Shown here in pieces: positions 2,026 through 40,460 of a stretch of 64,000 bases of DNA. The notes under the pieces were generated by a model. That model was not told the DNA's origin. It did no database searches and was given only the letters and a program-made list of their open reading frames with translations. Source of the DNA: an uncultured virus (IMG/VR IMGVR_UViG_3300048883_000321) (lineage: Duplodnaviria > Heunggongvirae > Uroviricota > Caudoviricetes); the IMG/VR virus record IMGVR_UViG_3300048883_000321; one strand, given 5' to 3'. Every line of letters starts with the position of its first letter. Positions within the stretch are counted from its first letter, which is position 1. The position numbers and the translations under genes were made by a program.

Positions 2026-2262
2026 ATGACTGAAAACAAATGTACCGGTACTGAAGCGTCGTATGTACGGGGATGCCGGTGCGATGATTGTAAGCAGGCT
2101 CGTAGTGTCGCTGTGAAGCGCCGCAGCCATGAGAAGCGTCAAGCGGAACGGGCTGCGTCACCGGCGAACATCGTGATCGATAAAAGCAAACCGTTTCGTT
2201 TGCCATCGAGAGATAGTTTTCAGGATTGCATCACTAGGGAACAGTATTACCGCAACAATTAG
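2026..2262 (+). CDS. Small Zn-binding protein
   Basis: CTGTEASYVRGCRCDDC motif, a YxxGCRCxxC type common in actinophage small proteins. Confidence 0.6.
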   Translation: MTENKCTGTEASYVRGCRCDDCKQARSVAVKRRSHEKRQAERAASPANIVIDKSKPFRLPSRDSFQDCITREQYYRNN

Positions 2263-2801
2263 CGGAACAAAGGTCCCAATACCCAGCCGACAGCGCACCA
2301 GCGTTCCCCTTTAGTTACCGGGTTGACGCTGTGAAGCGTCCACGAAGGCCACATTGTTGCTGCGCCTTGTACCTGCGATGCTTGGTCGTCTTCGGGGCCT
2401 ATGTGTAAATTGACTTCGCCGCCTTCGTAATCTTTAGGGTCGGAGAGTTGAACTGAAGACGAGATTTTACGGCGAGTGTAAGTCCCCCCCCAGTCTGTAT
2501 GTCGTGTATAGAAATCGTCGGGCAGGTACCGTATCACTTCGATACCGGGTAGTTGGTCAATGTCGAATCCCCAAATATTGTATCGTCGGCAGGCATGCCA
2601 GAGTTCGCCAACGAGTTCAGGGTGGTGGGCTCCGTCGATGAACCATCGGGTCGCTGACCTGATGTCAGAGCGGGCCCCTGATTGGCCGTCTTGTTGAACG
2701 GTTGCTTCGTGGGCTTCTCCTTCTAAAGCGACACGTTTAACTATTTCGCATTGCTCAGCAGTCCACAAATCCATTGTTTGATATACGGATGGGGCGTTCA
2801 T
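2259..2801 (-). CDS. 2OG-Fe(II) oxygenase (prolyl-hydroxylase/PKHD-like)
   Basis: Y...HTD, RKISSSVQLSDP.DYEGG, LHSV.PVTKGERW: HxD...H triad plus the 2OG-binding Arg. Confidence 0.85.
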   Translation of the reverse strand: MNAPSVYQTMDLWTAEQCEIVKRVALEGEAHEATVQQDGQSGARSDIRSATRWFIDGAHHPELVGELWHACRRYNIWGFDIDQLPGIEVIRYLPDDFYTRHTDWGGTYTRRKISSSVQLSDPKDYEGGEVNLHIGPEDDQASQVQGAATMWPSWTLHSVNPVTKGERWCAVGWVLGPLFR

Positions 2802-3280
2802 TTGGTTCCTTTCAACCGGTGTTCTTCCCTGTATTCCATGAACCGGGAAGCGAGATCAAATACGAGTTTATCGTCTTCGGCTCCTGCCATGCGGGCTGCT
2901 TGGCGTTTCTCACGGCGAGACAACTTCTCCATGTCGGTTGAGTCAACGTTGTGGCGGGCAAGGGTTTCTGTTACCCGTACAGCCATAGCCGCCAACTGTT
3001 GAACAACACGAGGGTCACCTAACCCGCTTTCCCCTTCATAGTTTTCTCTTTCCGCAAGTAACCCGACAGCCATGTCCCATGTTTCTTTCGAAGCGGGTTT
3101 CATCCTATGAGTTGTCGCCCAATATTTACGGTTAGGCCACTGGTCAGCCAACTCGTCTGCTGTGACCCCTTGCTGTTCCGCTACGTCGGCTATGCGGGTT
3201 GCTTTGTCGATACGGCGTTGCATTTCGAACGGGTTTGGCTCGTCAGACAATGATCCGTACTTTCCGTTTGCGAGACACAA
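2798..3280 (-). CDS. Hypothetical protein
   Basis: ORF tightly packed between terL and the oxygenase; start uncertain. Confidence 0.6.
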   Translation of the reverse strand: MCLANGKYGSLSDEPNPFEMQRRIDKATRIADVAEQQGVTADELADQWPNRKYWATTHRMKPASKETWDMAVGLLAERENYEGESGLGDPRVVQQLAAMAVRVTETLARHNVDSTDMEKLSRREKRQAARMAGAEDDKLVFDLASRFMEYREEHRLKGTK

Positions 3281-4571
3281 GACTATTCACAGCACCAGAC
3301 AAAGCGTCTACCTGATCGTCGTGTGCGCCCTTAGGGAACTGGACCAACTCATCTACAAACGCTTTGTTCCACCGGCCACGCAGCAACTTGATGTTGCCCA
3401 TTTCGGCCGCCGACGACGCTACACGGGCTCGCTCTACTTTGTTACCAGTAGGGCGCACCCCTTTGAACACGTACCCGACGAGAACAGTGCGGGCGTAATG
3501 GTCGATCGTGTTGACACCGCCAGAACCGGGTTCTTGTTCCATGACGATATCTACCAACGGGCCATCAGATTCAGCGGTGCGTTTCACAAGGTTTTGTACC
3601 TCACCGGGGGTGCCGCGTATGCGTTGAATATCGTAAACATAGTACCGGCCGTCGTCTATCCCGATTAAAGCCCCAACTGTGTAATCAGGGTTCTTTCCTT
3701 TTGCTGGAGCGGTTGCTGCTAAATCCCAGTAACGGACTTTCTTAACATTCGACGGTGGGGAATCAATGACGTCGAACCAGTCGGCTTCGAACATGCCGCC
3801 CGATTCTGAAACTTCCCAGTTGCCTTCCAGTAGGCGGGCTCGTTCCACAGCATCCAATTCGGCGAGGCTACGTTTGTATTCGACGGCATCCAACGAAGGG
3901 TTATCGGTGATAAGTGACGGCATGAACTTGCGTTCCTCACCCTTGTTGAGAATAAACCGTTCGTACACCCAGTCGTTGCCTCGACCACCGGGGTTCGTTG
4001 CAGCCCTGACACGCAACGGGATATCAGCAACCGACATGCCGCAACTAGGGCAGCGAGGAATCTTGTCGTGGCTGGTGATTTTACGGACACGAGAAAACCC
4101 GATATACAAATACACTTTGTCAGACGGCCACTGCGTTAACTCGTCTACCCCAACAAACTGGTAAGCAAACGACTGGAAGTTGTAGCGGTCTTCTTCTCGT
4201 TCGCAATGCCCTAACGTGAGTGTCGCCCCAGAATCAAACGTGAACCGTTTGTTCGTAACATTATAATCAACGTTTTGCCCGCTGAACCATTCTTGGCAAC
4301 GGTCGATAAAACCATCGGGCCCAGATAACTGAGGGTACGTTTGGCGTAAAAGAAGAGCAGAGTAACCGGGGACACAAGCGTATTGGAGTGCCGCTATCAG
4401 CAAAGTATCCGATTTGCCGCCGCCTGCCGCTCCGCCAAATAACGCTTCCCTAGTCGAAGACCAAGTTAAATATGCTTGCTGCTTCGGGTGGGGTTCATGC
4501 GGGAGAGTCAGGTTGCACGGCTTCTTGTACGATATCAGCCTCGATAATGCTTCCTTCGTCTTCTGATCCAT
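3243..4571 (-). CDS. terL: Terminase large subunit
   Basis: Walker A GGAAGGGKS, Walker B VGVDE, ATNPGG coupling motif, nuclease WDLA...DYT and HDDQVD. Confidence 0.95.
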   Translation of the reverse strand: MDQKTKEALSRLISYKKPCNLTLPHEPHPKQQAYLTWSSTREALFGGAAGGGKSDTLLIAALQYACVPGYSALLLRQTYPQLSGPDGFIDRCQEWFSGQNVDYNVTNKRFTFDSGATLTLGHCEREEDRYNFQSFAYQFVGVDELTQWPSDKVYLYIGFSRVRKITSHDKIPRCPSCGMSVADIPLRVRAATNPGGRGNDWVYERFILNKGEERKFMPSLITDNPSLDAVEYKRSLAELDAVERARLLEGNWEVSESGGMFEADWFDVIDSPPSNVKKVRYWDLAATAPAKGKNPDYTVGALIGIDDGRYYVYDIQRIRGTPGEVQNLVKRTAESDGPLVDIVMEQEPGSGGVNTIDHYARTVLVGYVFKGVRPTGNKVERARVASSAAEMGNIKLLRGRWNKAFVDELVQFPKGAHDDQVDALSGAVNSLVSRKRKVRIIV

Positions 4572-5178
4572 TGTCTTCTCCGTCTATTGCTGCCAAGACT
4601 TCCATAGGGAGGTCACCGGCGTCTACAAGTGCTTCCAACACTTTCCGTTGTCTTAATGCGTCAGATTCGGCGTCTACATGCACGGTAGCAGTAATCTGAG
4701 TCATTGGCCCACCGTTAGCCCCCGTGACCTCCAACCGGGTTGCCGGATCGGACCAGCGTTGAGGGAATGCTTTGGCGAGGAACCGTTCAGCGGCCCGCCA
4801 ATCGCCATCTACGGCTTCCGTGTACCAGCGTGTCACTAACGCTGCTTCGGATTTGCCTGATGCTTTTTCTAACTCGTTGAGGAACCATAAGCATTCTTCG
4901 CTGGTGCCGTCGAGTTTTTCGCCTTGCATGAGTTTCTCTCGGGCTTCTTCGCCTTCATGGATCCATCTGTAGAAAGTTTGCTTGTTGATACCGTAAGCCT
5001 CGTAAGCGGTTTTTCTGTAGTTGCCGGCTCCGATGAGTTTAATGATGCCTTCGAGTTTGACCCGAGGCGTGGTCAAGCCAGTGCGAAGCGAACGCTGGAT
5101 TTTCGGGGGAGTGTACTCGGGGTCCAAAACTCGTTTGTATTTGCGTGGCGGGGTTTCATCCGCTGCTTCTTCGGTCAT
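4495..5178 (-). CDS. terS: Probable terminase small subunit
   Basis: HTH (GINKQTFYRW), DWRAAERFL...PQRW, LEVTGANGGP; lies immediately upstream of terL. Confidence 0.75.
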   Translation of the reverse strand: MTEEAADETPPRKYKRVLDPEYTPPKIQRSLRTGLTTPRVKLEGIIKLIGAGNYRKTAYEAYGINKQTFYRWIHEGEEAREKLMQGEKLDGTSEECLWFLNELEKASGKSEAALVTRWYTEAVDGDWRAAERFLAKAFPQRWSDPATRLEVTGANGGPMTQITATVHVDAESDALRQRKVLEALVDAGDLPMEVLAAIDGEDNGSEDEGSIIEADIVQEAVQPDSPA

Positions 5179-5939
5179 TTGATTCCTACCCATCCAGCGA
5201 AGTTCATCCACCGCCAGAAACATTCATGGTGGGTGAATCCGCTTTGGTTTAATAAATGTTTATTCCAGCCCTCCGACAAGGGTTCCATTACCCCGTCGAG
5301 GCTAAGCCGTTTCCGTTCGATCTGCTCTTCCGTGTAACCCATGTTTCGTTTATGGTTATGGTAGATGCAAATCATTTCTTCCTTAAGTTGTTCCGTGTCG
5401 CCTACCAGTTTCTCAACAAATACGAGGCGCCCACCGGGGCGAAGCAACCTGTAGAACTCGTCGAGGATCCGTAACCTGTGAACCACAGGCACGAACTGAA
5501 GCGTCAACACACACAATACCACATCGAACTCGCCGTCGCCAAAAGGCATGTGGTCTCTTAAGTCGTGGTGGTAAAACTCGTACCGATTGTCGCCTTCAGA
5601 CATCTCTAATGCCCTGTTAAGCATCGGCTGTGACACATCGGTTCCAGCGAGGCGAGGGATCGTACGCCCATGCTTGCGAGCAAACACATCGAACCCTTCC
5701 AACGCCAACCCGTTAGAACAACCAGCGTCCAACACAGCGTTAAGGCTTTCCCCGCCCTGCGACCTTTTCTCAGGGTCGACAAGCATCGGGGCGGCGATAG
5801 CGTTCACCGCTTCCCTCATTTTACGGTAATCAGGGATACTGCGTTCCAGCATGTCGTCAAAGACGGCCGCTACGTCAGCGTCGAATTCCCAATCTCCGTC
5901 GGGCATCGTCTCATCACGCATACCCTCAGCGTACAACAT
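5175..5939 (-). CDS. CmoA-like carboxy-S-adenosylmethionine synthase / SAM-binding protein
   Basis: WEFDADVAAVFDDMLERSIPDY, DAGCSNG, LTLQF, EK, HKRNMGYTEEQIERKRLSL, WMNF. These run collinear with the CmoA family motifs as recalled ([50 protein letters not shown]). Confidence 0.8.
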   Translation of the reverse strand: MLYAEGMRDETMPDGDWEFDADVAAVFDDMLERSIPDYRKMREAVNAIAAPMLVDPEKRSQGGESLNAVLDAGCSNGLALEGFDVFARKHGRTIPRLAGTDVSQPMLNRALEMSEGDNRYEFYHHDLRDHMPFGDGEFDVVLCVLTLQFVPVVHRLRILDEFYRLLRPGGRLVFVEKLVGDTEQLKEEMICIYHNHKRNMGYTEEQIERKRLSLDGVMEPLSEGWNKHLLNQSGFTHHECFWRWMNFAGWVGIK

Positions 5940-5958
5940 GCCTTAACCGGCGGCAGGG

Positions 5959-6486
5959 TTACGGGAGAAGAGTTTTCCAAGGATCGTTGTCGTCGCGGTT
6001 GGCGTCACGGCATTCAACCCCGTTAGAGCGGTACATGGACCGCGAATACTTGTTTGATTCGATAGCGAAATACAGTTGAGGGTCTTCGCCATGGCGAGGC
6101 ATAATGACTTCAGTTAAATACCGTTGCTTTGCTCGGTGAGCCCGCAACGCACCCTTCCCAGAAGGATCAGCCCACGGGTTGAAACACACTTCGTTGGGTT
6201 GCCAGCCAGTAAGCGACTTGATGCGTTCCAACGTCATCTCTTCGTACACCTCTGACCGGGCAGTACATAAAATAACGTACTCGTTTTTAAGCAACTCGAT
6301 AATCCATTTACGGTACGTTTCGACCTCAGACACAAACTTTGTCATCGGACGGTGCTTCGGCATTTCTTTAAAGTTGCTAGACAACGCAACGTTCAAGTCT
6401 TGCAAAATGATGCGGCCGGATGGGCCAAACGCAATCTCGCTTTTAGGTTGTAATGGGAACAGGGAATCTTGGTCGTTCATAGACAT
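5959..6486 (-). CDS. HAD-fold protein (polynucleotide 3'-phosphatase-like) with atypical catalytic motifs
   Basis: IILQDLNVAL (motif I-like), VILCTARSE (motif II), K, FAIESN (motif IV-like). Confidence 0.55.
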   Translation of the reverse strand: MSMNDQDSLFPLQPKSEIAFGPSGRIILQDLNVALSSNFKEMPKHRPMTKFVSEVETYRKWIIELLKNEYVILCTARSEVYEEMTLERIKSLTGWQPNEVCFNPWADPSGKGALRAHRAKQRYLTEVIMPRHGEDPQLYFAIESNKYSRSMYRSNGVECRDANRDDNDPWKTLLP

Positions 6487-6489
6487 ATC

Positions 6490-8070
6490 TTAGAGCGCCA
6501 TCTCTAGTCTCCGTGAGAAGGCTTCCAAAGCCTCATCGACCCTGTTGAAAGACTCATCGGGGAACGGCAAATCAAACTCGAATCTGATTGCTTCGGTTAA
6601 CGCCACAGGGTCAACATCTACAGGGCTGCCGCATACTGCTTGAACCAACTGGTTCGGGGTATACAAGTAAGCGTTAACGTCGCGGAACCCGATGCGCCAC
6701 AGTTCCTCCCATTCGTTGATCGAAAAATACTTTTGGACTTTCGGGTGTTTGATCAAATCAGACACAACTACACCCTCTTCGTAACCAGCGGAAAACGACG
6801 AATCGAATTGGGTTTCATGGTTCGAAATGTTGTCCTTCTGCCCCATCGCTGCCCTGTACCGGTCGGCGTTACGAGAAATCGCTCCAGCGTAAACCGTTGT
6901 GTTGGGCGACGACAAAGCCGACACGATGCGAACAATATGGACACGATCCTGATGAAAGGGGACGCTGTTAAGCACCGATGCGAGGAAAATCGAATCGAAC
7001 TCAGTTCCGTCCGCTACACGAGCGAGAAACACATCGGCGATGTAACGAGCGGCTTCCATATCAAACCCGGAATCTTTGCCACCCGTGTAATACGGTTCGA
7101 ACGCTACACAATCGACACCCATCACATCTTGCATCACATGAGACTTGTCTAACAGCCCAGCACCAAAATCCAGCACCGTATCCCCGTACCAGCGTTTCCA
7201 CGCTTCGACATGCTGAGGGTTCGCTGGTTCAAACGTAGACGCCGCTCTCTGCGTTTTACCCGTGCGAGATAGTGCTGCTATCAGGTCGCAACACATCGTA
7301 GGCATCAAAAAATCTTGACGGTTGCTGGCCCGCCTAAACGAGTTGTACCGCAACACATCAGCGTATTTGTCTTCCAAATCGAAATCCATTGACAAATGGT
7401 TCAACAAGATACGGGCAAGGTCAGCGCCTTTATCGGGGACCCTAATGACCTGCACGTTAGGGATACCAACTTCGGCGGCGTGTTGAAGGCGACCGATACC
7501 GTTAACGACCTTATTTTTTTTCGTCACCACCAAAGGGATCGTTGTGCGTCCCCAGTGATACAGGCTTTCTGCTTGGCGAATCGTGTGGTATCGAAACATT
7601 TGAAGGTTTCTGCTCAGCAACTCTTTGGTGCCCATCGTTTCCATGAAAGCGCAAGGGAACCATTCGTCGGAATCGATTTCGATATCGGGGAGGCTCCCCA
7701 CTGCTTGTTTGACGACAGACATAGGGAGACGTTCCGACAAAGTTTCGCCGGTGTCCTGCTTGTCCATGTCGTTGGTGGCACGGTTGAACACAATGTTGAC
7801 GCCTTTACGGCGTTGCAGATCAAGGTCAGGTAAGAACACGACAGGAACCTTTGTGGCTCCAAGTTCACGGGCAGCGTCTAAACGTTGATGCCCTGATAAA
7901 ACTTCGCCCTCTGGGGTCGCGTACATAGGGAGCAGCCACCCGAGTTTCTGCAAACTCAATTTCACCATGTCGAAACGGTGAGGGTCAGCCCTGCGCGGGT
8001 TGTAGGGGGCTTTCCTGAGTGTCTCTATATCAACTAACTCGACATTGACGAACTTAACAATTCGGGTCAT
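6490..8070 (-). CDS. ParB/Srx-domain protein fused to a SAM-dependent transferase-like domain
   Basis: N-terminal YNPR...VLSGHQRL; second ParB-like unit VVNGIGRL; C-terminal Rossmann motifs VLDFGAG, AFEPY, SVLNSVP, QKYF. Confidence 0.75.
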   Translation of the reverse strand: MTRIVKFVNVELVDIETLRKAPYNPRRADPHRFDMVKLSLQKLGWLLPMYATPEGEVLSGHQRLDAARELGATKVPVVFLPDLDLQRRKGVNIVFNRATNDMDKQDTGETLSERLPMSVVKQAVGSLPDIEIDSDEWFPCAFMETMGTKELLSRNLQMFRYHTIRQAESLYHWGRTTIPLVVTKKNKVVNGIGRLQHAAEVGIPNVQVIRVPDKGADLARILLNHLSMDFDLEDKYADVLRYNSFRRASNRQDFLMPTMCCDLIAALSRTGKTQRAASTFEPANPQHVEAWKRWYGDTVLDFGAGLLDKSHVMQDVMGVDCVAFEPYYTGGKDSGFDMEAARYIADVFLARVADGTEFDSIFLASVLNSVPFHQDRVHIVRIVSALSSPNTTVYAGAISRNADRYRAAMGQKDNISNHETQFDSSFSAGYEEGVVVSDLIKHPKVQKYFSINEWEELWRIGFRDVNAYLYTPNQLVQAVCGSPVDVDPVALTEAIRFEFDLPFPDESFNRVDEALEAFSRRLEMAL

Positions 8071-9395
8071 TTACGAAACTCGTTGTTGCCGGTCGTCGGG
8101 TCAGCGACAGAAGCCCACACCGAAAACAGCGACGGATCCAAAGTCAGCAACTGGCCGATCCTGTAACCCCGTTCCTCTTTCGATACGAACCCGTCGGCGA
8201 TCATTAACTGTTCCCATTCGGAATACTGTTTCCCGCAAACCTGAATAGACGCCCCACCTACTTTGATGGTTGCCACTCGACGCACATCAGCCGGAGCGTT
8301 AATAGCCGCAATCGGGTCACGTTCCTGAGGGAGGTCTTTAATGATTTCCTCTATGTCTGCTGGTTCGAACCCTGTCCCGTCGAGGCTATCCAAATCCATG
8401 AGGACACTCGCTAAAGAAGCATTGTAGTAACCGGCTTTATCGGCCAAACGGTTATCTGCCAGCAAGATACGAGCCGCCTCAGCATCAGTAACATCAATAA
8501 ACGTTACTGGGATTTCGTCCCACCCAAGCGACCTCGCTGCTTGCCAAGTATTGTTACCTTTCAAAATAAGGCTACTGGACTCCTGAATAAGTAAAGGACG
8601 GTACACCCCGTTGATACGCAAAGACTCACTGATAGCCCCTATGTCGCCCTGACGAGCGTTCTCAGGGTGAGGCATAACCGAATCGATAGAAACCCAATTA
8701 AGGGCATCTAAACCAACATGGCGAGGTGTTTCCCCCGAAATGTTTTTCCACTTCTTACCCTTAACCACTGGTTTAGGTTCAGGATCATCAGTAAGCCCCA
8801 ACAAGTCTCTTAAATGCAGCAACGCCTCTGGCTTACCGCCGCAAGCCTCTTCTATGCCGCCAAGCCATTCATTAAAATAATCGGCTTCGACAAGCAACAA
8901 GTTTTTCCCAACATGGATTTTTTTAGTAGTGGCTTCGTCGCCGGATTGCTCCATGCCGCCGCCACCAAAAATGTCGTCCTCGCCGTCGAACTCTTCCATC
9001 TGGTAGAGGCGTTCCAACGACCGTTTGTCCCAACCAGAACCCTCAAGGTCTGGTGCTAGTTGCTCAATCAACCCAAGAAGGTTCCCGCGGTCGTAGGTAG
9101 CGAGATCCGATGTTCGGTTATCAGCCAACAAAATCCGTTTGGCCTGCTGGTCATCGACCTCCACATGGACGACAGCGATCTCGTCCCATCCAAGAGACTT
9201 CGCTGCCTTCCATGTGTGGTTCCCTGCCAGAATATTCCCGTTGCGTAAATCTACGACAATGGGAGCGTATTGCCCATTGACATTCAAAGACTCGGCGATA
9301 CCGGGTACATCCCCTCTCCGTGGGTTAGACGGGTGAGAATGAACCGTGTCGATACCAACGACGAGGTCTTTGAGGTCTGGGGCAATTTGGTCCAT
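8067..9395 (-). CDS. Tandem double ParB/Srx-domain protein
   Basis: Two homologous halves: HPSNPRRGD..AGNHTWKAAKSLGWDEI..ILLADNR and HPENARQGD..KGNNTWQAARSLGWDEI..ILLADNR. Confidence 0.85.
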   Translation of the reverse strand: MDQIAPDLKDLVVGIDTVHSHPSNPRRGDVPGIAESLNVNGQYAPIVVDLRNGNILAGNHTWKAAKSLGWDEIAVVHVEVDDQQAKRILLADNRTSDLATYDRGNLLGLIEQLAPDLEGSGWDKRSLERLYQMEEFDGEDDIFGGGGMEQSGDEATTKKIHVGKNLLLVEADYFNEWLGGIEEACGGKPEALLHLRDLLGLTDDPEPKPVVKGKKWKNISGETPRHVGLDALNWVSIDSVMPHPENARQGDIGAISESLRINGVYRPLLIQESSSLILKGNNTWQAARSLGWDEIPVTFIDVTDAEAARILLADNRLADKAGYYNASLASVLMDLDSLDGTGFEPADIEEIIKDLPQERDPIAAINAPADVRRVATIKVGGASIQVCGKQYSEWEQLMIADGFVSKEERGYRIGQLLTLDPSLFSVWASVADPTTGNNEFRK

Positions 9396-10348: not shown

Positions 10349-12574
10349 CTATTGGGTTCGTTCTACTAAACGCTTAACCAAGTCGGTTAAGACGCTTTCA
10401 TTCTTTGCCTCTGCACCATCGGTAACAGCATCAACAACGATTCGTTTCTTTTCGATTAAAGCGAAAATATCGTCATCGATAGTTCCATTAGCGAGCAGGT
10501 ACCACGCCGCAACGTTGTCCTCTTGCCCGATGCGGTGGCACCGGTCTTCTGCCTGATCATGCTCACCGGGCGTCCAGCCTTGCTCCACGAACAAAACATC
10601 CGACGCAGCGGTGAGGGTCAGACCAACACCACCAGCCTTCATATTGAGAACAATCACTCGCTTGGATGGATCGGTTTGGAACGAATCCACAGCAGCCTGA
10701 CGGGTCTCAGCAGTGTCTTTACCAGCGACCCGAAGGCCACCGTACTGGGCAGCGATAGCGTCGACCACCGAAACGTGGTGAGCGAACACAACTAACTTAC
10801 GGTCAGTACTATCAAGAAACGTGTCAATCCATTCGCAAGCCGCTTCTACTTTGCCTTCGCCAGCAAGTCGCTTCAGTGTCGTGATTTGAGACAAATGGTT
10901 CGCAGTGTCGCCGCCCGCCCCGTTCTCCGAGAAGTAAGCAAGAGTGTTTGCTTCAGCAGCACGGTACTGGCGGATAGCGTCGCCCTTGAGGTCAACGTTG
11001 ACCTCTGAACGGGTCTTCGGTGGGAGTTCCTTAAGGACATCTGCTTTGTTGCGACGAACGTAGCAGGTGCGACGCAGAAGGTCGTTGAGTTCCTGAGTGT
11101 TCGCTGACCCGCTGAAATCCCACCCGAAGTTGTTGCGGGTAGCGTTGCAGTAACGCTTACGGAAGTTCCAAGAACCACCGAAGTCGTCAATGCGACCCAA
11201 GATTTCCAGTTGGGAAACCAGTTCCACGGGACGGTTCAACACGGGCGTACCGGTCAAAGCCAACACCATGCCGGTGTCAGGGATGCTCTTAGCGAGCCCC
11301 TTGAGGGCTTTGGTGCGTTTCGCAGCAGGGTTCTTAACGTAGTGGCTTTCGTCGAATATCAGCGACTGGAACCCGATGGTCCCTAACGCTTCTGCTTGCT
11401 TGGTCAAAATATCGTAGTTGATGATCACAATGTCAGCGTTTTTGACGCCAACTTTGGAATCCACAATATGAACGTTTTTGCCGGGCAACCATTTGCGGGC
11501 TTCACGCTCCCAGTTGTGCTTAAGCGATGCTGGGCATACAACTAAAGCAGGGAACGAGTTTTTTGCTTGGATGGCAGCCAACGCTTGAACCGTTTTCCCG
11601 AGCCCCATTTCGTCTGCGACGAAGGTGCGTTGCGCTTTAATGGCGTAAGCGACACCTGCTCGTTGGAATGGTCGGAGAGTCCCTCCGAGGTTTTCGATAT
11701 GTAAAGTAGCGTCCGTTGCTTCGGAGTCGATGCCTCGCTGTACGGCGTCGCTAACCACATCGCTGAGAGCGGCAGTGGTGGCGTCGTCCATTTCGAAGCC
11801 ACGCATGGTCGCCAAGCCGACAGCCTGTTCGGAGGAGGTCATAGGGACTACCCATACTTTGCGTTTCGTATCCCACCGGCGTCCTGTGATGGCTTTAACA
11901 GCGTCTACGAGTTCAGCGTCGTAATCGAATTCGAAAATAAGGTCACGGCCAACGAGGGTGAGTCGCCGGGTCGCTACGGGAGTGTCGACGGCTACTGCTT
12001 CGTGTTCGCGGAGAACAGCGTTGGCTGCTTCTGTGGCGGTGAAAGCGTGTGCTTCGCCGAACGCACGGAGTTGCCCTGCTGCTGCTCCGTCGATAACCCA
12101 ACGGACTTGATCGGAGTCCCATGAGGAACCCATGATGTTTCGGATTTCGCTGACAAGGCCAGCGTTGTAGGTGAAGTAAACGTGGAACTCGCCGAGGTCG
12201 TAGTCGATGGTGCGTTGGTCACGGCGAGCGTATTCTGCTTGTCGTGCGTCGTCGCGGCCATCTTCGAACGTCTTGGTAGGTACGGGAAGTTCGGTGTAAA
12301 CGAATCCGTAGTTTTCTAACTGGCCTTGGTAGGTGGCGAGCATTGTGTGGCAATCTGATGCCATTGCTGCTGTCCACTGGTCAGGGCTGGTGCCTGCGAG
12401 GCGGCGACCGAATTTGGTGTCGCGGCCGTTGAAGCCTACTCCGTCTTCGCTTTCCGCTCCATCGCACATAAGGGCGATGGAGGAAACGGCGTCCCAGAGG
12501 TCTTGGTAGGTGCTTTCTGTGTCTTCGATTGTAGTGTTCATGTCTTCCTTGGTTAAGTAGTTGCGTGTTCGCAT
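10349..12574 (-). CDS. SNF2-family helicase with two HARP-like domains (SMARCAL1-like architecture)
   Basis: ADEMGLGKT, DESH, LTGTP, QAEDRCHRIGQ. Two N-terminal repeats: FTYNAGLVSEIRNIMGSSWD..RW and FDYDAELVDAVKAITGRRWD..VW. Confidence 0.9.
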   Translation of the reverse strand: MRTRNYLTKEDMNTTIEDTESTYQDLWDAVSSIALMCDGAESEDGVGFNGRDTKFGRRLAGTSPDQWTAAMASDCHTMLATYQGQLENYGFVYTELPVPTKTFEDGRDDARQAEYARRDQRTIDYDLGEFHVYFTYNAGLVSEIRNIMGSSWDSDQVRWVIDGAAAGQLRAFGEAHAFTATEAANAVLREHEAVAVDTPVATRRLTLVGRDLIFEFDYDAELVDAVKAITGRRWDTKRKVWVVPMTSSEQAVGLATMRGFEMDDATTAALSDVVSDAVQRGIDSEATDATLHIENLGGTLRPFQRAGVAYAIKAQRTFVADEMGLGKTVQALAAIQAKNSFPALVVCPASLKHNWEREARKWLPGKNVHIVDSKVGVKNADIVIINYDILTKQAEALGTIGFQSLIFDESHYVKNPAAKRTKALKGLAKSIPDTGMVLALTGTPVLNRPVELVSQLEILGRIDDFGGSWNFRKRYCNATRNNFGWDFSGSANTQELNDLLRRTCYVRRNKADVLKELPPKTRSEVNVDLKGDAIRQYRAAEANTLAYFSENGAGGDTANHLSQITTLKRLAGEGKVEAACEWIDTFLDSTDRKLVVFAHHVSVVDAIAAQYGGLRVAGKDTAETRQAAVDSFQTDPSKRVIVLNMKAGGVGLTLTAASDVLFVEQGWTPGEHDQAEDRCHRIGQEDNVAAWYLLANGTIDDDIFALIEKKRIVVDAVTDGAEAKNESVLTDLVKRLVERTQ

Positions 12575-15257: not shown

Positions 15258-15820
15258 TACGATCTCCTCAGAACTGCTTTGACGCTTCGTTTAACATCAC
15301 AGAAGTTATCAGGGTCCATACCCGGAATACGCGCCCGCAACGCAGTTACTCGCCAATCACGGAAAGCAGCGCACTCTAGGAGGCGTTCAACGACAGCATC
15401 CATCCACGGGGCAACGATTTCTCTTTCGGAAATCATCGCTCCTGTTTCTTGGTCTACATAGTCGCGTGGCTCTATATCGTCTAGAGCAGTGTTCACTACG
15501 GCACGAACCAGAACTTGGTTTTGCCAGTTCGACCGGTAGTTCGACACTTTGCGTTCGATCATTGTGCTTCCCACTTCGAAACGGCGTTCACCCATCTGAT
15601 CCATGACGGTTACCAGCGACGGGTTCGTTTCGCTGTCTACTTCACGAACCTGCGCTTTGATGTCGCCTAACGCTTCAAGCAACCAAACCATCCCCTCGGA
15701 GGAGGCTTCAAGGTTGCCTGATTCGGCGTCCGCTTGGGCGGCTTTCAAATAGTCGGCCATCATCGTTCTTAACGTGTCAGCGTGGTCTTGGATGTCTAAT
15801 ATTTTTTCGTTATAAGTCAT
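15257..15820 (-). CDS. Hypothetical protein
   Basis: 187-aa ORF translationally coupled to its neighbour. Confidence 0.65.
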   Translation of the reverse strand: MTYNEKILDIQDHADTLRTMMADYLKAAQADAESGNLEASSEGMVWLLEALGDIKAQVREVDSETNPSLVTVMDQMGERRFEVGSTMIERKVSNYRSNWQNQVLVRAVVNTALDDIEPRDYVDQETGAMISEREIVAPWMDAVVERLLECAAFRDWRVTALRARIPGMDPDNFCDVKRSVKAVLRRS

Positions 15821-16154
15821 GGTGCAATACTTTCAGTCTTAAACCGGGTTGGTCTGGGTTCTCTGGGGAAACGATTATACGGTCAACGACCGCCAACCAG
15901 TTTTCACCAGCGTCTATTTGGGAGGATAGGTCGGCCGCTATGTCAGCGGGGACGTACCCCATGTGTAGGGATCCGACGAACACTTTGATGGCGTTCGGGT
16001 CTACAGGGTTGTTTGGTTCACGAACCAGATTGGCTCGGATTGGTCGATCAGCGAGGGCGACTGCTTTGCCGACAGCGAACACGTTTTGTGGATAGTTGGC
16101 TCCACGAAATGTGACTCCGACAACAGGCACCTCCAGCGGGGAGGCGAGAGTCAT
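15810..16154 (-). CDS. HIRAN-domain protein
   Basis: VVGVTFR...LVREPNNPVDPNAIKV...HMGYVP. Confidence 0.85.
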   Translation of the reverse strand: MTLASPLEVPVVGVTFRGANYPQNVFAVGKAVALADRPIRANLVREPNNPVDPNAIKVFVGSLHMGYVPADIAADLSSQIDAGENWLAVVDRIIVSPENPDQPGLRLKVLHHDL

Positions 16155-27776: not shown

Positions 27777-29282
27777 CTATCGGGTTTTTCGTCTTCTTGA
27801 ACTTTTCTTGTCACCACTAGAGTCACTACCGCCACCACTGCCCGAGCCTCCTCCGCCGCCACCCCCGGATGATCCAGAAACTGCCGAGGACGCAATACTT
27901 ACTGCTGCCGCAGCAGCAACAACGGTACGGCGAGTTCCAGTATCTACTGAAGACCCATCCGCAACGTACTCGTTGTAGGCTTCGTCTTCAAAAATGTTAA
28001 TGGAGTCCTCGAACTCTTCTTTGACTCCTCCGTCAGCGTCATTGAGTGCTTCAACAAGAATCTTTTTACCATCGTCAGGGATGTCGTCAAAGTTTTCTTC
28101 CGAAACAAGGGCGCTGACTTCCTCAATAGTAACATCCCCGTCAACAACGTTTAAGAAGCCTTCAGCGAGTTGTTCGTCTATAGCGTCGAGATCCTCAACA
28201 ACCTTTTCTTCAGCGTCGTCAATTTCAGATAATTCTACGCCCTCGATGTCGATGCCGAGACTATTAAGTTCCAACGCTAGTTCTTGGTCCTCTTCTTCAA
28301 CGCCAATCTCATCAAAGAACTCGTCGATACTTAGCGATTCGCCGGTGTCGTCGATAAACTCAAACTCAATTTCTTCGCCATTTACCGTAATGATTTCCGG
28401 CTCTGGCTCTGGAGGAAGGGTGGTCGTCCTTATGGGTAGAGGCACGGTGGTTGTGCTTGTAGTTGTAGTAGTAGTTGTAGGAGGAAGTGTCGTTGTTGGA
28501 GGGAGCGTCGTAGTAGTTGTAGTAGTAGTAGTAGTTGTAGTAGGAGGGAGCGTCGTAGTTGGAGGGAGCGTAGTAGTAGTTGTAGTAGGAGGAAGCGTCG
28601 TAGTTGGCGGCAGCGTAGTGGTAGTAGTTGTAGTAGTAGTTGTAGGCGGCAGCGTAGTAGTAGGCGGAAGCGTAGTAGTTGGAGGGAGCGTCGTAGTTGT
28701 AGGGAGCGTCGTAGTTGTAGTTGGGGGAAGCGTCGTTGTAGGGGGCATAGTAGTTGTAGCAGTAGTTGTAGGGGGCAGCGTTGTAGTTGTAGTTGTAGTT
28801 GTAGTTGTAGTTGTAGTTGTAGTTGTAGTTGTAGTTGCAGGGGGTGCCGTTGTGGAAAGAAGTAGATCAGTGACCAGTTCATACTCGCTGCTTCCCGATT
28901 CAGGCACGTTGCCAAGCCCTAATTGCTCAGGATAGTAGCCTGAGAGCAAACGGTAATTACCTGCATCTAAAGTCACATACAGTTTTGATGACAGACATTG
29001 ATCTTGATAGTTGTGGTTACCGTCGTCATTATCGGTAACAAGAGTTTCCCCTAAGTACAGCCATAGATACGGGTCAATCGTTGCCGTTTCACAAGACTGG
29101 TTACTGTTCCCATAAATAACAACGTTTGTACCGTCATCTTCTACTTGGAAGTACCAGTTTGATTCTTCGGTGACATCGTAAGCATTGGACGCTGACGCAG
29201 TAGGGGCGAACCATGCCAACAGGAACACCCATAACAGGGCGGCCTTAGCCAGCCTTCTATAAGTTTCGCTTTTGCGCAGCAT
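27777..29282 (-). CDS. Exported, membrane-anchored Thr/Pro-rich (mucin-like) protein
   Basis: Signal peptide (ASA cleavage site); PPC-like DPYLWLY...NDDG domain; ~150-aa TTTLPP linker; acidic domain; C-terminal hydrophobic anchor and basic tail. Confidence 0.8.
   Translation of the reverse strand: MLRKSETYRRLAKAALLWVFLLAWFAPTASASNAYDVTEESNWYFQVEDDGTNVVIYGNSNQSCETATIDPYLWLYLGETLVTDNDDGNHNYQDQCLSSKLYVTLDAGNYRLLSGYYPEQLGLGNVPESGSSEYELVTDLLLSTTAPPATTTTTTTTTTTTTTTTTTTLPPTTTATTTMPPTTTLPPTTTTTLPTTTTLPPTTTLPPTTTLPPTTTTTTTTTTLPPTTTLPPTTTTTTLPPTTTLPPTTTTTTTTTTTTLPPTTTLPPTTTTTTTSTTTVPLPIRTTTLPPEPEPEIITVNGEEIEFEFIDDTGESLSIDEFFDEIGVEEEDQELALELNSLGIDIEGVELSEIDDAEEKVVEDLDAIDEQLAEGFLNVVDGDVTIEEVSALVSEENFDDIPDDGKKILVEALNDADGGVKEEFEDSINIFEDEAYNEYVADGSSVDTGTRRTVVAAAAAVSIASSAVSGSSGGGGGGGSGSGGGSDSSGDKKSSRRRKTR
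28783..28836. repeat. (GTAGTT)x9 perfect in-frame microsatellite encoding poly-Thr
   Basis: Counted directly; lies within a degenerate repeat tract at about 28445-28850. Confidence 0.9.
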
Positions 29283-29297
29283 AAAACGCCTCCCACA

Positions 29298-30779
29298 TTA
29301 TGCTGTCTCCAATGTTTCAATGCGGGCCTCTGATGCTGTTAGCCGTGTCCTTAACGATTTAACCTCAGCGGCAAGGACGGAGATCATGTCTGGCCACTTC
29401 CACCCTTCGGCTTTCAACTCACCGTCCACGTCGTCGTACTGACCGAGGTGAGCAGTAAGGGGGTCGCCAGCAATGTCTTCAGCGATGAACCCATAGTTCA
29501 AATCTGCTGCTCGCCAAGCCGCCTCTTCAGACGAGTCCTCTTCATCTGGTTTCTCAACGAACGTGACGGGGTGCAAGGCGTCAACGATTGCGCCAGAGTC
29601 GGTGAACGGTGTGATCTGGTCTTTGTAATCTTGGGAGGAGGTGTAGTAGGCGAACGACGTGTAGGTGGAGTTTCGCACGACGTACTTGTAGCCGCTCAGC
29701 GACGAGGTAGCAGACAGCGTTGCGGCGATGCCGTTGCAGAGCATTCCCTTGCTGCCGTAAGTCCTGACCCAAGTGGTGTCAGTCATCTGCCAACCACCGC
29801 CGTAAGTACCGTTGTACCATCCCGTAGTTCCGTAGGAACGGAACCAATCACCAGATGCCAAGTGCAATCCGTCCGTCTTGAACTGATGAAGGACGCTATT
29901 GCAAACAACCCCAATAACTCCGTTTGCCACACGGTAAAAGCCCGTGTTTGAGTCAGACGAAAACGACAGAGACGGAGCGGTAGAAGATCCAACTCCCACC
30001 AATACTTTCGTCAGGGACGGCGATGCATCAAGGTTGAGGGTGACAGCACCAGAAGTGCCGCCCCCGTTAAGGTTCGTCCCAGCGGTGACGCCGGTGATGT
30101 CGCCCGTGGTTGTTGAATAGCCGTAGGACAAGATTTTGTCTTGGATACTTGCCGAGGTCATCAAAGACGTGTCGTTATCAACGAACGAGCCACTAGATGC
30201 CTGTATTACTGAAATGCCATCAAGAACATTTAGTTCTGCGGCGGTTGCAGTAACTGCTGTGCTTCCAAGTGTTAATAAGCCATCAGCGATTTCTAACCCA
30301 GTACCGTTAATTAACTTGAGGGTATTTGAAGTCCACCTTGCAGAAATGTTATTTGAGCCAGCCTTCTGATGCGTTATCTCAATAATCCCATCTTCAGAAG
30401 TGTTAGATGCGTCGTCAATCTTTGCTGTTACTTTTGCGTATACAACCTTCCCCCCACCGTCATCTTCTCCTTGAAACTTTATCTGACCCAAGTAGTCGGA
30501 ATCAGCAGGGCTAGAACTATTTCTATACAACTCTATTATTGGGGCTGCTGAAGAACCTGCATCGGTGCTAGATAGTGTAACTGTTGATGTCCCATCATAA
30601 GCAAAGTTTGATGAACCAGCCAAAGAACCAGAACTGTTATATTGAACCTGAGTATTGGAGCCACCAATAGTTGCAGTGGCGATAGCGAGTTTCCAAACTG
30701 TGCCATCCCAAATCCAAGTACGGTCGCCTACAGAAACAGTATCGTTAACTGAGGGGGAATCGGGGAAGTTAATAGCCAT
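29298..30779 (-). CDS. Tail fibre-like protein with C-terminal chaperone domain
   Basis: MAINFPDSP...RTWIWDGTVW start; S..YKDQI...YGFIAED...coiled-coil end. Confidence 0.75.
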   Translation of the reverse strand: MAINFPDSPSVNDTVSVGDRTWIWDGTVWKLAIATATIGGSNTQVQYNSSGSLAGSSNFAYDGTSTVTLSSTDAGSSAAPIIELYRNSSSPADSDYLGQIKFQGEDDGGGKVVYAKVTAKIDDASNTSEDGIIEITHQKAGSNNISARWTSNTLKLINGTGLEIADGLLTLGSTAVTATAAELNVLDGISVIQASSGSFVDNDTSLMTSASIQDKILSYGYSTTTGDITGVTAGTNLNGGGTSGAVTLNLDASPSLTKVLVGVGSSTAPSLSFSSDSNTGFYRVANGVIGVVCNSVLHQFKTDGLHLASGDWFRSYGTTGWYNGTYGGGWQMTDTTWVRTYGSKGMLCNGIAATLSATSSLSGYKYVVRNSTYTSFAYYTSSQDYKDQITPFTDSGAIVDALHPVTFVEKPDEEDSSEEAAWRAADLNYGFIAEDIAGDPLTAHLGQYDDVDGELKAEGWKWPDMISVLAAEVKSLRTRLTASEARIETLETA

Positions 30780-40103: not shown

Positions 40104-40460
40104 TTATTCAGTTGGATCTTCGTCTTCGTCTTCGTCGATTTCCCAGCCATCTAACCCTCCAACGTTTACCGTAGGGTCGAAAACAACTTGCCCGCCGTAA
40201 GTCACCCGGCTTGGCCACGCCAAACATTCGAGTTCAGAAGCGATCCGTTTTAACGCCGACGCGGCAACCATCGGAGGGACCGAACCTAAATCAACATGGT
40301 TTGGTTCCGACGGGTCGTCGAACGAAAGAACAATAGTTATGACAGGGAAATGAGTGGCCTGCGGGATTTCATCATCGAATCCCCCTTGCCCCTCAGGCTG
40401 AGTAGTACTCCCCGCGGAAGATGGCCTCACCTCGGGAGATTGGGACGAGTTCGACATCAA
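40104..40460 (-). CDS. Hypothetical protein (start uncertain)
   Basis: Acidic C-terminus; fills the gap between the phosphoesterase and capsid genes. Confidence 0.45.
   Translation of the reverse strand: MMSNSSQSPEVRPSSAGSTTQPEGQGGFDDEIPQATHFPVITIVLSFDDPSEPNHVDLGSVPPMVAASALKRIASELECLAWPSRVTYGGQVVFDPTVNVGGLDGWEIDEDEDEDPTE

What the first reader, a model, noticed from the sequence alone, without database searches (positions are those of the whole stretch)
5175..9395. Candidate carboxy-SAM-dependent DNA modification cassette coupled to the terminase genes
Seen: four tightly packed genes run directly into terS-terL: double-ParB protein, ParB-ParB-SAM-transferase fusion, HAD-fold protein and CmoA-like protein. 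Established: CmoA converts SAM plus prephenate to carboxy-SAM, which CmoB uses for tRNA cmo5U; no CmoB-like gene or tRNA is recognisable here. ParB-fused modification enzymes next to terminases are a known theme in phages. Inference: the phage makes its own carboxy-SAM or a related SAM derivative, and the ParB-fused transferase puts a carboxymethyl-type group on DNA during or for packaging. I recall phage cytosine carboxymethylation being reported with a C5-methyltransferase-like enzyme. This transferase has no recognisable C5 PC/ENV or amino-MTase DPPY motif, so its target chemistry may be new.
Basis: partly seen in the sequence, partly recalled or inferred. Interest (0 to 1): 0.9.

Follow-up and report, generated by a model that had tools for sequence, protein, structure and literature searches.

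The report
Phage carboxy-SAM module, ParB-fused transferase
A marine-type phage carries, just ahead of its DNA-packaging genes, a conserved gene set pairing a likely maker of the rare cofactor carboxy-SAM with an uncharacterised methyltransferase-fold enzyme fused to two ParB domains; it probably marks phage DNA in a way not yet described, but no chemistry has been measured.

Summary
Window 5175-9395 (minus strand) encodes four tightly packed genes that run into terS-terL: a tandem-ParB protein, a ParB-ParB-class I methyltransferase fusion (phrog_5475, function unknown), a HAD-fold protein and a CmoA homologue.

Yang et al. 2025 (PMC12783734) showed phage CmoA plus a C5-methyltransferase homologue (CmoX) makes 5-carboxymethylcytosine. 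The same paper says no non-C5 carboxymethyltransferase candidate was found beside phage CmoA.

This module is such a candidate:
- No C5-methyltransferase or CmoB was found in the window, in 5 related contigs or in 3 complete cultured phage genomes that carry the module.
- The fusion is followed by a CmoA-like gene in 58 of 59 IMG/VR loci, and one lies in 65 of 67 GTDB loci.
- The window's CmoA homologue scores higher on the CmoA model than the experimentally proven phage enzyme, and it keeps Lys198/Arg199.
- The transferase domain folds like small-molecule/RNA class I methyltransferases (best match METTL6), not like any DNA methyltransferase listed.
- The HAD protein resembles the T4 Pnkp phosphatase domain but has DxN in place of DxD.

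Target, chemistry and any packaging role remain inferred. This scan reported the same module before on other DNA (five notes). Verdict: a new variant of a known kind, well supported as a module, unproven biochemically.

The parts
8067..9395 (-). Tandem ParB/Srx-fold protein (442 aa): two ParB N-terminal-type domains (about residues 13-105 and 233-320), each followed by a helical region. No HTH or canonical partition architecture.
   Evidence: Pfam ParB_N 3.4e-15 with 2 stretches. phrog_8071 6.1e-75 with 2 stretches. TIGR00180 56.6 bits, below its 58.45 cut-off. PDB Noc/ParB E 5e-6 for residues 251-321. A ParB gene precedes the fusion in 53 of 54 IMG/VR loci with upstream DNA.
7696..8070 (-). 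ParB-ParB-methyltransferase fusion, residues 1-125: ParB-type domain 1, with invariant YNPR, SGHQR and NRxTND motifs.
   Evidence: Family profile against PDB: Noc 6.3e-6, Spo0J 3.3e-5. Invariant in 134 of 134 family members.
7387..7695 (-). Fusion, residues 126-228: second, degenerate ParB-like domain (invariant N155, P179, N190-G191, R194).
   Evidence: hhalign of domain 1 against domain 2: probability 94.4%, E 9e-8, 72 columns. Weak hit to the 5k5a ParB-domain nuclease, E 0.07.
6490..7386 (-). Fusion, residues 229-526: class I SAM-methyltransferase domain. It has an N-terminal helical lid (invariant D229, R241, R247), motif I VLDFGAG, E325 at the end of strand 2, an invariant N368-S-V-P-F372 and D375-R376 after strand 4, invariant K444/K447, and a C-terminal helical tail (486-526). 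Coordinates include the stop codon.
   Evidence: AF2 pLDDT 89.3, pTM 0.83. VIA: METTL6 Z 13.9, rmsd 3.1, 193 aligned, model residues 229-485. The search independent of Foldseek gave METTL6 Z 13.3, then small-molecule methyltransferases. Foldseek best hit CcbJ 2.5e-5. Atlas Methyltransf_23/11 clusters, 0.97-0.91. Invariant residues. phrog_5475 9.8e-92, function unknown.
5959..6486 (-). Capless HAD-fold protein (175 aa) resembling the T4 Pnkp 3'-phosphatase domain. Motifs: D30-L-N32 (not DxD), T75, K120, E143-S-N145.
   Evidence: AF2 pLDDT 89.9. Foldseek 5uj0_A E 3.1e-6, TMt 0.72. Atlas HAD_PNKP clusters, 0.92-0.94. Motif conservation. phrog_32036 2.8e-18. Adjacent to the fusion in 49 of 59 IMG/VR loci.
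5175..5939 (-). CmoA homologue (254 aa), the candidate carboxy-SAM synthase. It keeps the equivalents of E. coli K198/R199 (K210/R211).
   Evidence: TIGR00740 133.5 bits (cut-off 193.3) over 15-254. PDB 1im8/4gek E about 1e-23. 31% identity to E. coli CmoA, E 4e-31. Alignment. The proven SpCmoA scores 115.6 bits.
4495..5223 (-). Terminase small subunit. The longest ORF overlaps the end of the CmoA-like gene by 49 nt; the true start may lie further downstream.
   Evidence: phrog_4102 1.8e-20, residues 47-183.
3243..4571 (-). Terminase large subunit.
   Evidence: phrog_979 1.7e-107; Pfam Terminase_6N and Terminase_6C.

Best explanation
The region is a late-operon DNA-modification module.

Proposed mechanism:
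- The CmoA homologue converts SAM (with prephenate from the host) into carboxy-SAM.
- The methyltransferase-fold domain of the ParB-ParB fusion uses that cofactor to place a carboxymethyl group on phage DNA after replication and before or during packaging.
- The two fused ParB-type domains and the separate tandem-ParB protein deliver or activate the enzyme on double-stranded DNA, as a ParB-like protein does for a phage thymine dioxygenase.
- The transferase belongs to neither the C5 nor the classical amino-methyltransferase lineage, so the modified atom is probably not cytosine C5 and is currently unknown.
- The HAD-fold DxN protein is an accessory factor of unknown role.

Shown here: the gene content, the folds, the conserved pairing and the absence of alternative transferases.

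Inferred: carboxy-SAM synthesis, its use by the fusion, DNA as the target, and the timing.
For: Module conservation:
- A CmoA-like gene follows the fusion in 58 of 59 non-redundant IMG/VR loci with at least 1.8 kb downstream.
- One lies in the locus in 65 of 67 GTDB genome loci.
- 10 of 10 diverse neighbours have CmoA TIGR00740 as their best NCBIfam hit.
- Pairwise distances of the two proteins correlate (Mantel r 0.79; 0 of 999 permutations reach it; 113 loci). This shows co-inheritance.
- The order is kept in the cultured phages Evaa, HJ05 and SM1.

CmoA identity:
- Full-length match to CmoA models and structures.
- K198 is invariant in 113 of 113 loci, and R199 is kept in the window protein.

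No other user of the cofactor:
- PF00145 is absent from the window ORFs, from 5 related contigs and from 3 complete phage genomes. The S-B43 positive control is found.
- CmoB PF08003 is absent in 5 of 5 records.
- No tRNA was found in the window.

DNA as target:
- ParB-CTPase folds fused to N6_N4 and Methyltransf_23 domains are a phage- and prophage-enriched architecture (PMC12704722, passages).
- A phage DNA dioxygenase needs a ParB-like activator on dsDNA (PMC13229309, abstract).

Position:
- The module sits directly upstream of a large terminase in at least 64 of 97 loci, across several terminase types.
Against: - No chemistry has been measured anywhere for this family.
- The CmoA homologue is below the NCBIfam equivalog cut-off (133.5 against 193.3).
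- The transferase domain shows no detectable specific similarity to either known Cx-SAM user. Against CmoB only motif I aligns. Against SpCmoX nothing aligns.
- Its nearest folds are small-molecule and RNA methyltransferases. None of the 50 rows listed in either VIA search is a DNA methyltransferase by title, so a non-DNA substrate is possible.
I could not test whether an invariant basic residue (R241, R247, R376, K444, K447) faces the cofactor's methyl position.
- Three loci (L080, L136, L170) carry the fusion and the HAD-like gene but no CmoA-like gene.
- The window covers 64 kb of a contig recorded as up to 74,184 nt, so about 10 kb is unseen.
- Co-inheritance and synteny do not prove a shared pathway.
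Confidence: 0.5

Rival explanations
1. The fusion is an ordinary SAM-dependent DNA methyltransferase, and the CmoA homologue serves another purpose. That purpose could be draining host SAM to blunt SAM-dependent defences, or boosting host tRNA cmo5U through the host's own CmoB.
For: ParB-fused DNA methyltransferases are common in phages (PMC12704722). Yang et al. themselves raise CmoA-mediated SAM depletion as a possibility (PMC12783734 Discussion). The methyltransferase domain has ordinary SAM-binding motifs. Three loci lack the CmoA-like gene.
Against: The near-obligate pairing (58 of 59 and 65 of 67 loci) across hosts from Actinobacteria to Firmicutes and Proteobacteria is hard to explain by an unrelated role. 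By my recollection, cmo5U/CmoB is a Gram-negative trait, yet Gordonia and Lachnospiraceae loci keep the pair. The loci without CmoA could use a host CmoA, as E. coli CmoA supplied SpCmoX (PMC12783734).
Confidence: 0.15
2. The module does use carboxy-SAM, but the acceptor is not DNA. It could be an RNA (tRNA or rRNA), a nucleotide bound by the ParB-type NTP pocket, or a protein of the packaging machinery.
For: The best structural neighbours are the tRNA m3C methyltransferase METTL6 (Z 13.9 and 13.3), Trm9 and small-molecule N-, O- and C-methyltransferases. ParB folds bind CTP, ATP or GTP (PMC12704722). Every Cx-SAM user known before 2025 acted on tRNA or peptides (PMC10491745).
Against: Z-scores from 13.9 down to 9.6 form a continuum of generic class I methyltransferases, so the ranking says little about the substrate. 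ParB-fused methyltransferases and ParB activators are tied to DNA in the cases studied. No phage polymerase or nucleotide-salvage set that a pre-replicative route would need was seen in the window.
Confidence: 0.15
3. The CmoA homologue makes a different SAM derivative, or catalyses another reaction altogether. The fusion then transfers a group other than carboxymethyl.
For: The protein is below the equivalog cut-off. Across 113 partnered homologues the R199 position splits into R 54, E 52, K 3, A 3 and S 1, so the carboxylate-binding site is not uniform. The HAD-like DxN protein in the operon hints at extra chemistry.
Against: Both the R type (E. coli) and the E type (S-B43 SpCmoA) occur in enzymes shown to make carboxy-SAM. 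The window protein has the E. coli-type K-R pair and aligns end to end with CmoA.
Confidence: 0.1
4. The ParB proteins and the fusion primarily serve packaging, and any base modification is secondary. Their role could be recognising or marking a pac-type site, or helping terminase cleavage.
For: The module abuts terminase genes of at least five types (phrog_979, phrog_15, phrog_9-like, Evaa-type, Terminase_3). In several loci no recognisable small terminase lies between the module and terL.
Against: The window and many relatives do have their own TerS. In the L051/L057-type loci the module is followed by RusA and WhiB genes, not terminase. 33 of 97 loci gave no recognised terminase within 5.5 kb. 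A cofactor synthase is hard to explain by site recognition alone.
Confidence: 0.1

Closest known systems
CmoA-CmoX-CmoY system of Synechococcus phage S-B43 (Yang et al., Nat Commun 2025, PMC12783734)
   Same: A phage-encoded CmoA homologue sits next to a DNA-directed transferase. ParB-domain genes are frequent neighbours (1660 ParBc sequences in their contigs, section 13). No CmoB is present.
   Different: The transferase here is not a C5-methyltransferase homologue: there is no PF00145 hit and no alignment to SpCmoX. No AMP-forming ligase (CmoY) was seen in the window. The window's CmoA has R at the E. coli R199 position where SpCmoA has E. The paper states that its preliminary search found no N6-adenine or N4-cytosine carboxymethyltransferase candidates with CmoA (Discussion).
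Bacterial CmoA/CmoB tRNA cmo5U pathway (and TglE/TglF, MccS)
   Same: A CmoA-type synthase is paired with a class I methyltransferase-fold transferase encoded beside it, as in E. coli cmoA-cmoB.
   Different: The partner is not Methyltransf_9. hhalign to CmoB aligns only 18 columns around motif I. PF08003 is absent in 5 of 5 records. The partner carries two ParB-type domains, and no tRNA is present in the window.
ParB-CTPase-fold fusions to methyltransferases in phages (PMC12704722; NCBI CDD name ParB_N_like_MT as written in the SM1 record)
   Same: The architecture is a ParB N-terminal fold fused to a Methyltransf_23-type domain and is enriched in phages and prophages. One shorter homologue of the window's domain carries PF13489.
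   Different: That survey names the architecture only. It does not mention CmoA (0 occurrences), the tandem ParB arrangement or a cofactor.
ParB-dependent phage thymine dioxygenase 5mYOX176/ParB176 (PMC13229309)
   Same: A stand-alone ParB-like protein without an obvious DNA-binding domain is encoded beside a post-replicative phage DNA-modifying enzyme. That enzyme needs it on dsDNA (abstract).
   Different: The enzyme class differs (Fe/2OG dioxygenase against methyltransferase fold).
T4 polynucleotide kinase/phosphatase, 3'-phosphatase domain (5uj0, 1ltq)
   Same: Best structural match of the 175-aa protein: a capless HAD fold with the nucleophile Asp at the end of strand 1.
   Different: The second Asp of DxDxT is Asn (nearly invariant), and motif IV is E-S-N rather than acidic pairs. 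There is no kinase domain.

Membership tests
CmoA, carboxy-SAM synthase (TIGR00740 / NF011995) | End-to-end homology with CmoA as the best-scoring family | tested here: met
   TIGR00740 E 9.1e-39, residues 15-254 on model positions 13-239 of 239. PDB CmoA/YecO E about 1e-23. 31% identity to E. coli CmoA.
CmoA, carboxy-SAM synthase (TIGR00740 / NF011995) | Score above NCBI's equivalog cut-off | tested here: not met
   133.5 bits against 193.3. The experimentally proven S-B43 SpCmoA also fails, with 115.6 bits, so the cut-off does not separate active phage enzymes.
CmoA, carboxy-SAM synthase (TIGR00740 / NF011995) | Arg199, which binds the Cx-SAM carboxylate in E. coli CmoA (PMC4482062), and the neighbouring Lys198 | tested here: met
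   K210/R211 align with K198/R199. K is invariant in 113 of 113 partnered homologues. R is present in 54 of 113 and E in 52 of 113.
CmoA, carboxy-SAM synthase (TIGR00740 / NF011995) | Makes carboxy-SAM from SAM and prephenate | not testable with these tools
   Needs an enzyme assay or complementation.
CmoX, C5-methyltransferase-type DNA carboxymethyltransferase | C5-methyltransferase fold (PF00145) with the SPPC motif and R350 | tested here: not met
   No PF00145 hit among 58 window ORFs. hhalign of the family against SpCmoX: probability 0.2%. PF00145 is absent in 5 related contigs and 3 complete carrier genomes but found in the S-B43 control.
CmoB, Cx-SAM-dependent carboxymethyltransferase (Methyltransf_9) | Homology to PF08003/CmoB, including K91, Y200 and R315 | tested here: not met
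   hhalign aligns 18 columns around motif I only (probability 6.9%). There is no Pfam hit. Whether other basic residues play the K91 role could not be tested.
Class I SAM-dependent methyltransferase fold | Rossmann-like core with a glycine-rich motif I and an acidic residue after strand 2; structural match to solved methyltransferases | tested here: met
   VLDFGAG and E325 are invariant in 134 of 134 members. METTL6 Z 13.9, rmsd 3.1, 193 aligned. The wide search gave Z 13.3, and 174 chains reached Z >= 8.
Amino (N6-A/N4-C) DNA methyltransferases (PF01555 and relatives) | (D/N/S)PP(Y/F/W) motif IV and family homology | tested here: inconclusive
   No Pfam hit and no DPPY-type tetrapeptide in the sequence. 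An invariant N-S-V-P-F follows strand 4. Its role cannot be judged without coordinates.
ParB/Srx N-terminal (ParB-CTPase) fold, PF02195 | Domain homology | tested here: met
   Tandem protein: 2 stretches, E 3.4e-15. Fusion domain 1: profile against Noc 6.3e-6. Fusion domain 2: hhalign probability 94.4%.
Canonical partition ParB (TIGR00180) | Score above cut-off, with HTH and C-terminal dimerisation domains | tested here: not met
   56.6 bits against 58.45 for the tandem protein. No hit for the fusion.
HAD phosphatases (T4 Pnkp-type) | HAD fold | tested here: met
   5uj0_A E 3.1e-6, TMt 0.72, 150 columns; model pLDDT 89.9.
HAD phosphatases (T4 Pnkp-type) | DxDx(T/V) motif I with both aspartates | tested here: not met
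   The motif is D30-L-N32. D30 is invariant and N32 is at least 90% conserved in 26 sequences.
CmoY-type amide ligase | An AMP-forming or asparagine-synthetase-like ligase encoded nearby | tested here: not met
   No such Pfam or PHROG hit among the window ORFs scanned. About 10 kb of the contig is not in the window.

The most novel reading that the evidence does not exclude
The ParB-ParB fusion is a natural DNA carboxymethyltransferase of a lineage unrelated to all known DNA methyltransferases. It would write a base modification not yet described, such as a carboxymethyl group on a ring or exocyclic nitrogen or an oxygen rather than on cytosine C5. Its ParB domains and the ParB partner would load it onto dsDNA, and expression would be timed with packaging. 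The DxN HAD-fold protein would process the mark or a DNA end. This would be the non-C5 carboxymethyltransferase that the 2025 paper looked for and did not find. The family is spread over hundreds of phages and prophages in many phyla.
Probability: 0.3. Interest if true: 0.9.

Novelty: new variant of a known kind. Interest (0 to 1): 0.72.

Why it matters
Phage DNA carboxymethylation through carboxy-SAM was first shown in December 2025 and is known for one enzyme lineage only, the C5-methyltransferase homologues. If this module works as proposed, three things follow:
- It adds a second, unrelated transferase lineage, and probably a new modified base. That bears on restriction evasion, on sequencing artefacts in viromes and on tools for site-directed DNA functionalisation.
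- It gives a function to a widespread phage architecture, the ParB fold fused to Methyltransf_23, which a 2025 survey could only name.
- It offers a second case of ParB-type proteins acting as partners of DNA-modifying enzymes.

Cultured carriers exist (Gordonia phage Evaa, Aeromonas phage HJ05, Pseudomonas phages SM1 and PaMx31, and prophages in several type strains), so the question is directly testable.

Tried and rejected
- Nucleotide search of the region against GenBank phages found only a 149-nt ParB match in Arthrobacter phage Shrooms, so no close cultured relative is known.
- No whole genome is held for the window.
- Single-sequence and profile searches of the fusion against PDB gave only ParB hits and UbiG at E 0.12.
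- Pfam on the isolated C-terminal 231 residues gave nothing, even at E 10.
- The profile of the HAD-like family against PDB sequences gave only chance-level hits. The fold was settled by structure instead.
- hhalign of the fusion family against the CmoA alignment covers 168 columns at probability 4.3%, E 0.0095. That is generic class I similarity, not evidence of a special relation.
- Promoter and terminator scans were at or below shuffle expectation, so they do not define the operon.
- Looking for standalone named relatives of the methyltransferase domain gave mostly fragments. One Allorhizobium protein is labelled PF13489.
- Literature searches for this module found no paper linking CmoA to a ParB-fused non-C5 transferase.
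- The Kim et al. 2013 CmoA paper was not held under the id I tried, so the prephenate-pocket residues were not checked.
- Complex prediction for the tandem ParB with the fusion was not available. No statement on binding is made.
- Model coordinates are not exposed, so distances from the invariant basic residues to the cofactor site could not be measured.
- In both VIA lists no DNA methyltransferase, CmoA or CmoB entry appears among the 50 rows shown. By the tool's own caveat this is inconclusive.
- The idea that the 2OG-Fe(II) oxygenase downstream of terL belongs to the pathway was set aside. It is PF13640/YbiX-like rather than TET/JBP-like, and no homologue of it was detected by phmmer in the soil-type loci.

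Full report
**What is there.** The window is a siphovirus-type phage contig. No whole genome is held for it. Portal, protease, major head, tail, tape-measure, replication and lysis genes are all present. On the minus strand a long operon runs in this order:

| Coordinates | Product |
|---|---|
| 10349-12574 | SNF2 helicase |
| between 9395 and 10337 | three small ORFs |
| 8067-9395 | tandem ParB protein |
| 6490-8070 | 526-aa fusion |
| 5959-6486 | 175-aa protein |
| 5175-5939 | CmoA homologue |
| 4495-5223 | terS |
| 3243-4571 | terL |
| 2798-3280 | 160-aa unknown |
| 2259-2801 | 2OG-Fe(II) oxygenase |

**The four proteins.**
- *Tandem ParB.* It has two ParB_N stretches (E 3.4e-15) and just misses the canonical ParB model (56.6 against 58.45 bits).
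- *Fusion, ParB part.* It belongs to phrog_5475, function unknown (9.8e-92). Its first ParB-type domain is clear at profile level (Noc 6.3e-6). The second was shown by aligning the family's residues 1-125 with 126-285 (probability 94.4%, E 9e-8).
- *Fusion, transferase part.* The AF2 model built on 38 homologues is confident (pLDDT 89.3, pTM 0.83). Residues 229-485 match class I methyltransferases. Foldseek's best hit is CcbJ (2.5e-5). VIA's best hit is the tRNA m3C methyltransferase METTL6 (Z 13.9, rmsd 3.1, 193 aligned). A search independent of Foldseek gives the same picture (METTL6 Z 13.3, then small-molecule N-, O- and C-methyltransferases down to Z 9.6 at rank 50). The ranking is a continuum, so it fixes the fold and not the substrate.
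- *175-aa protein.* It had no sequence-level family. It folds with pLDDT 89.9, and its best match is the T4 Pnkp 3'-phosphatase domain (E 3.1e-6, TMt 0.72). The family has D-L-N in place of DxD and E-S-N in motif IV, so it is unlikely to be an ordinary phosphatase.
- *CmoA homologue.* It aligns end to end with CmoA models and structures.

**Is the CmoA homologue credible as a carboxy-SAM synthase?** It is below NCBI's equivalog cut-off (133.5 against 193.3 bits). [quoted passage not shown] SpCmoA scores only 115.6 bits and is 29% identical to E. coli CmoA, against 31% for the window protein. In E. coli CmoA only Arg199 contacts the carboxyl group of Cx-SAM (PMC4482062, passages). The window protein keeps Lys-Arg at that place. 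Among 113 CmoA homologues partnered with the fusion, Lys198 is invariant. The Arg199 position splits into R 54, E 52, K 3, A 3 and S 1. SpCmoA itself has Glu there in both MAFFT and BLASTP alignments.

**Conservation of the module.** The fusion family is large: 998 proteins at E <= 1e-5 among the 8000 candidates scored, 331 IMG/VR stretches and 156 stretches in GTDB species genomes.
- *IMG/VR.* Of 72 non-redundant loci, 59 have at least 1.8 kb downstream. In these, 58 have a CmoA-like gene within 3.5 kb on the same strand and 49 have the HAD-like gene. Of 54 loci with upstream DNA, 53 have a ParB gene. The exception, L080, has no CmoA homologue even by profile.
- *GTDB.* Of 67 loci with downstream DNA, 65 contain a CmoA-like gene. 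My strict window caught 57. Seven more start just before the window edge and one lies upstream. L136 and L170 have none.
- *Identity of the neighbour.* Ten of ten diverse neighbours have CmoA as their best NCBIfam family (46.8-166.7 bits, all below cut-off).
- *Co-inheritance.* The distance matrices of the two proteins correlate (Mantel r 0.79; 0 of 999 permutations reach it). This shows co-inheritance and nothing more.
- *Cultured phages.* The same order is found in Gordonia phage Evaa (gp1 ParB, gp2 fusion, gp4 phosphatase, gp5 methyltransferase, gp6 terminase), Aeromonas phage HJ05 and Pseudomonas phage SM1.

**No alternative user of the cofactor.** No PF00145 or Methyltransf_9 hit occurs among the 58 window ORFs scanned, and there is no tRNA. 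PF00145 is absent from five related viral contigs (up to 83% complete) and from the complete genomes of Evaa, HJ05 and SM1. The S-B43 control is found at 4.9e-54. CmoB (PF08003) is absent from 5 of 5 records. The fusion family aligns with CmoB only around motif I and not at all with SpCmoX.

**Link to packaging.** Of 97 non-redundant loci with at least 4.5 kb downstream, a large terminase lies within 5.5 kb in at least 64. That is 41 of the phrog_15 type, 19 of the window's type and 1 of the Evaa type, plus 3 Terminase_3. Three more have an unassigned large ORF directly followed by a portal gene. SM1 and HJ05 add a phrog_9-like type. In the L051/L057 group the module is instead followed by RusA and WhiB genes. 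The synteny is real and crosses terminase families. It is equally well explained by a shared position at the start of the late operon, so I treat a packaging function as a minor rival.

**What is known.** Yang et al. (abstract, passages and sections 10, 13, 14 read) showed CmoA + CmoX gives 5-carboxymethylcytosine, and CmoY ligates glycine to it. They noted ParBc neighbours of unknown role. They also wrote that a preliminary search found no adenine-N6 or cytosine-N4 carboxymethyltransferase candidates associated with CmoA. A 2025 survey of the ParB-CTPase fold lists fusions to N6_N4 and Methyltransf_23 domains as phage-enriched and does not mention CmoA (passages). A 2026 paper shows a phage thymine dioxygenase that needs a ParB-like activator on dsDNA (abstract). 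That is a precedent for the stand-alone ParB here. My searches found no paper on this module. The supplements of these papers were not opened.

**Reading.** I judge the chain of inference as follows:
- Near certain: the genes form one conserved module.
- Probable (about 0.7): the CmoA homologue makes carboxy-SAM.
- More likely than not: the fusion uses carboxy-SAM.
- More likely than not: DNA is the acceptor.

Taken together these give about 0.5. Invariant residues that could hold the extra carboxylate or the acceptor are R241, R247, N368-S-V-P-F372, D375-R376 and K444/K447 (134 of 134 members). Their geometry could not be checked because model coordinates are not exposed. The three loci without CmoA may rely on a host CmoA, as SpCmoX did in E. 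coli. That is inference.

**Earlier notes of this scan.** Five notes on other DNA describe the same module and reach the same reading. They are not independent evidence.
- the benchmark against the proven SpCmoA;
- the R/E split of the clamp position;
- the folds of the fusion and of the HAD-like protein;
- the absence tests in complete cultured genomes;
- the count of terminase contexts;
- the two 2025-2026 ParB papers.

Noticed in passing
window 2259-2801 (-) and 2798-3280 (-): A 2OG-Fe(II) oxygenase (PF13640, YbiX-like, not TET/JBP) and a 160-aa unknown follow terL. Both recur after terL in the close relatives. In the L057/L058/L060/L062/L070 group the oxygenase lies 3-5 kb from the module on the other strand. 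Short homologues of the 160-aa protein sit about 1 kb downstream of the CmoA-like gene in the L051-L062 group.
   Followed up: partly
L051:10992-11414 (+): In a freshwater-type relative, a gene matching phrog_3125 (S-adenosylmethionine decarboxylase, 1.1e-11) lies about 1.7 kb downstream of the CmoA-like gene, after RusA and WhiB-like genes. It is a second SAM-related gene near the module.
   Followed up: no
L080, L136, L170: Three loci carry ParB, the fusion and the HAD-like gene but no CmoA homologue. L136 is from a Pseudomonadota MAG. They may depend on a host CmoA.
   Followed up: partly
window 40393-41604 (-): A 403-aa metallophosphoesterase (phrog_20266, 4.8e-85) sits between the head protease and the major head protein genes, an unusual place for an enzyme gene.
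   Followed up: no
window 15810-16154 (-) and 10349-12574 (-): A small HIRAN-domain protein (PF08797, 1.4e-10) and an SNF2 helicase with a weak HARP-like stretch lie in the replication region. Both are DNA-damage or fork-remodelling domains.
   Followed up: no
window 27777-32251 (-): Three consecutive ORFs of about 490-500 aa. One has tail-fibre hits and one has a Peptidase_S74 chaperone-like end. They are possibly paralogous receptor-binding proteins.
   Followed up: no
L016:2465-4273 (also seen as L043): In one relative the HAD-like ORF is 602 aa instead of about 160-210 aa, so it may be fused to or run into an extra domain. In several relatives (such as L009 and L012) it is 254 aa.
   Followed up: no
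L143, L171, L172/L180, L178, L179, L156, L157: Prophage copies of the fusion occur in cultured strains: Bilophila wadsworthia ATCC 49260, Photobacterium indicum ATCC 19614, Puniceicoccaceae Marseille-Q1082 (two copies), Acetatifactor muris DSM 23669, A. aquisgranensis DSM 110981, Anthropogastromicrobium aceti and Leptolyngbyaceae UHCC 1019. These are useful as experimental material.
   Followed up: partly
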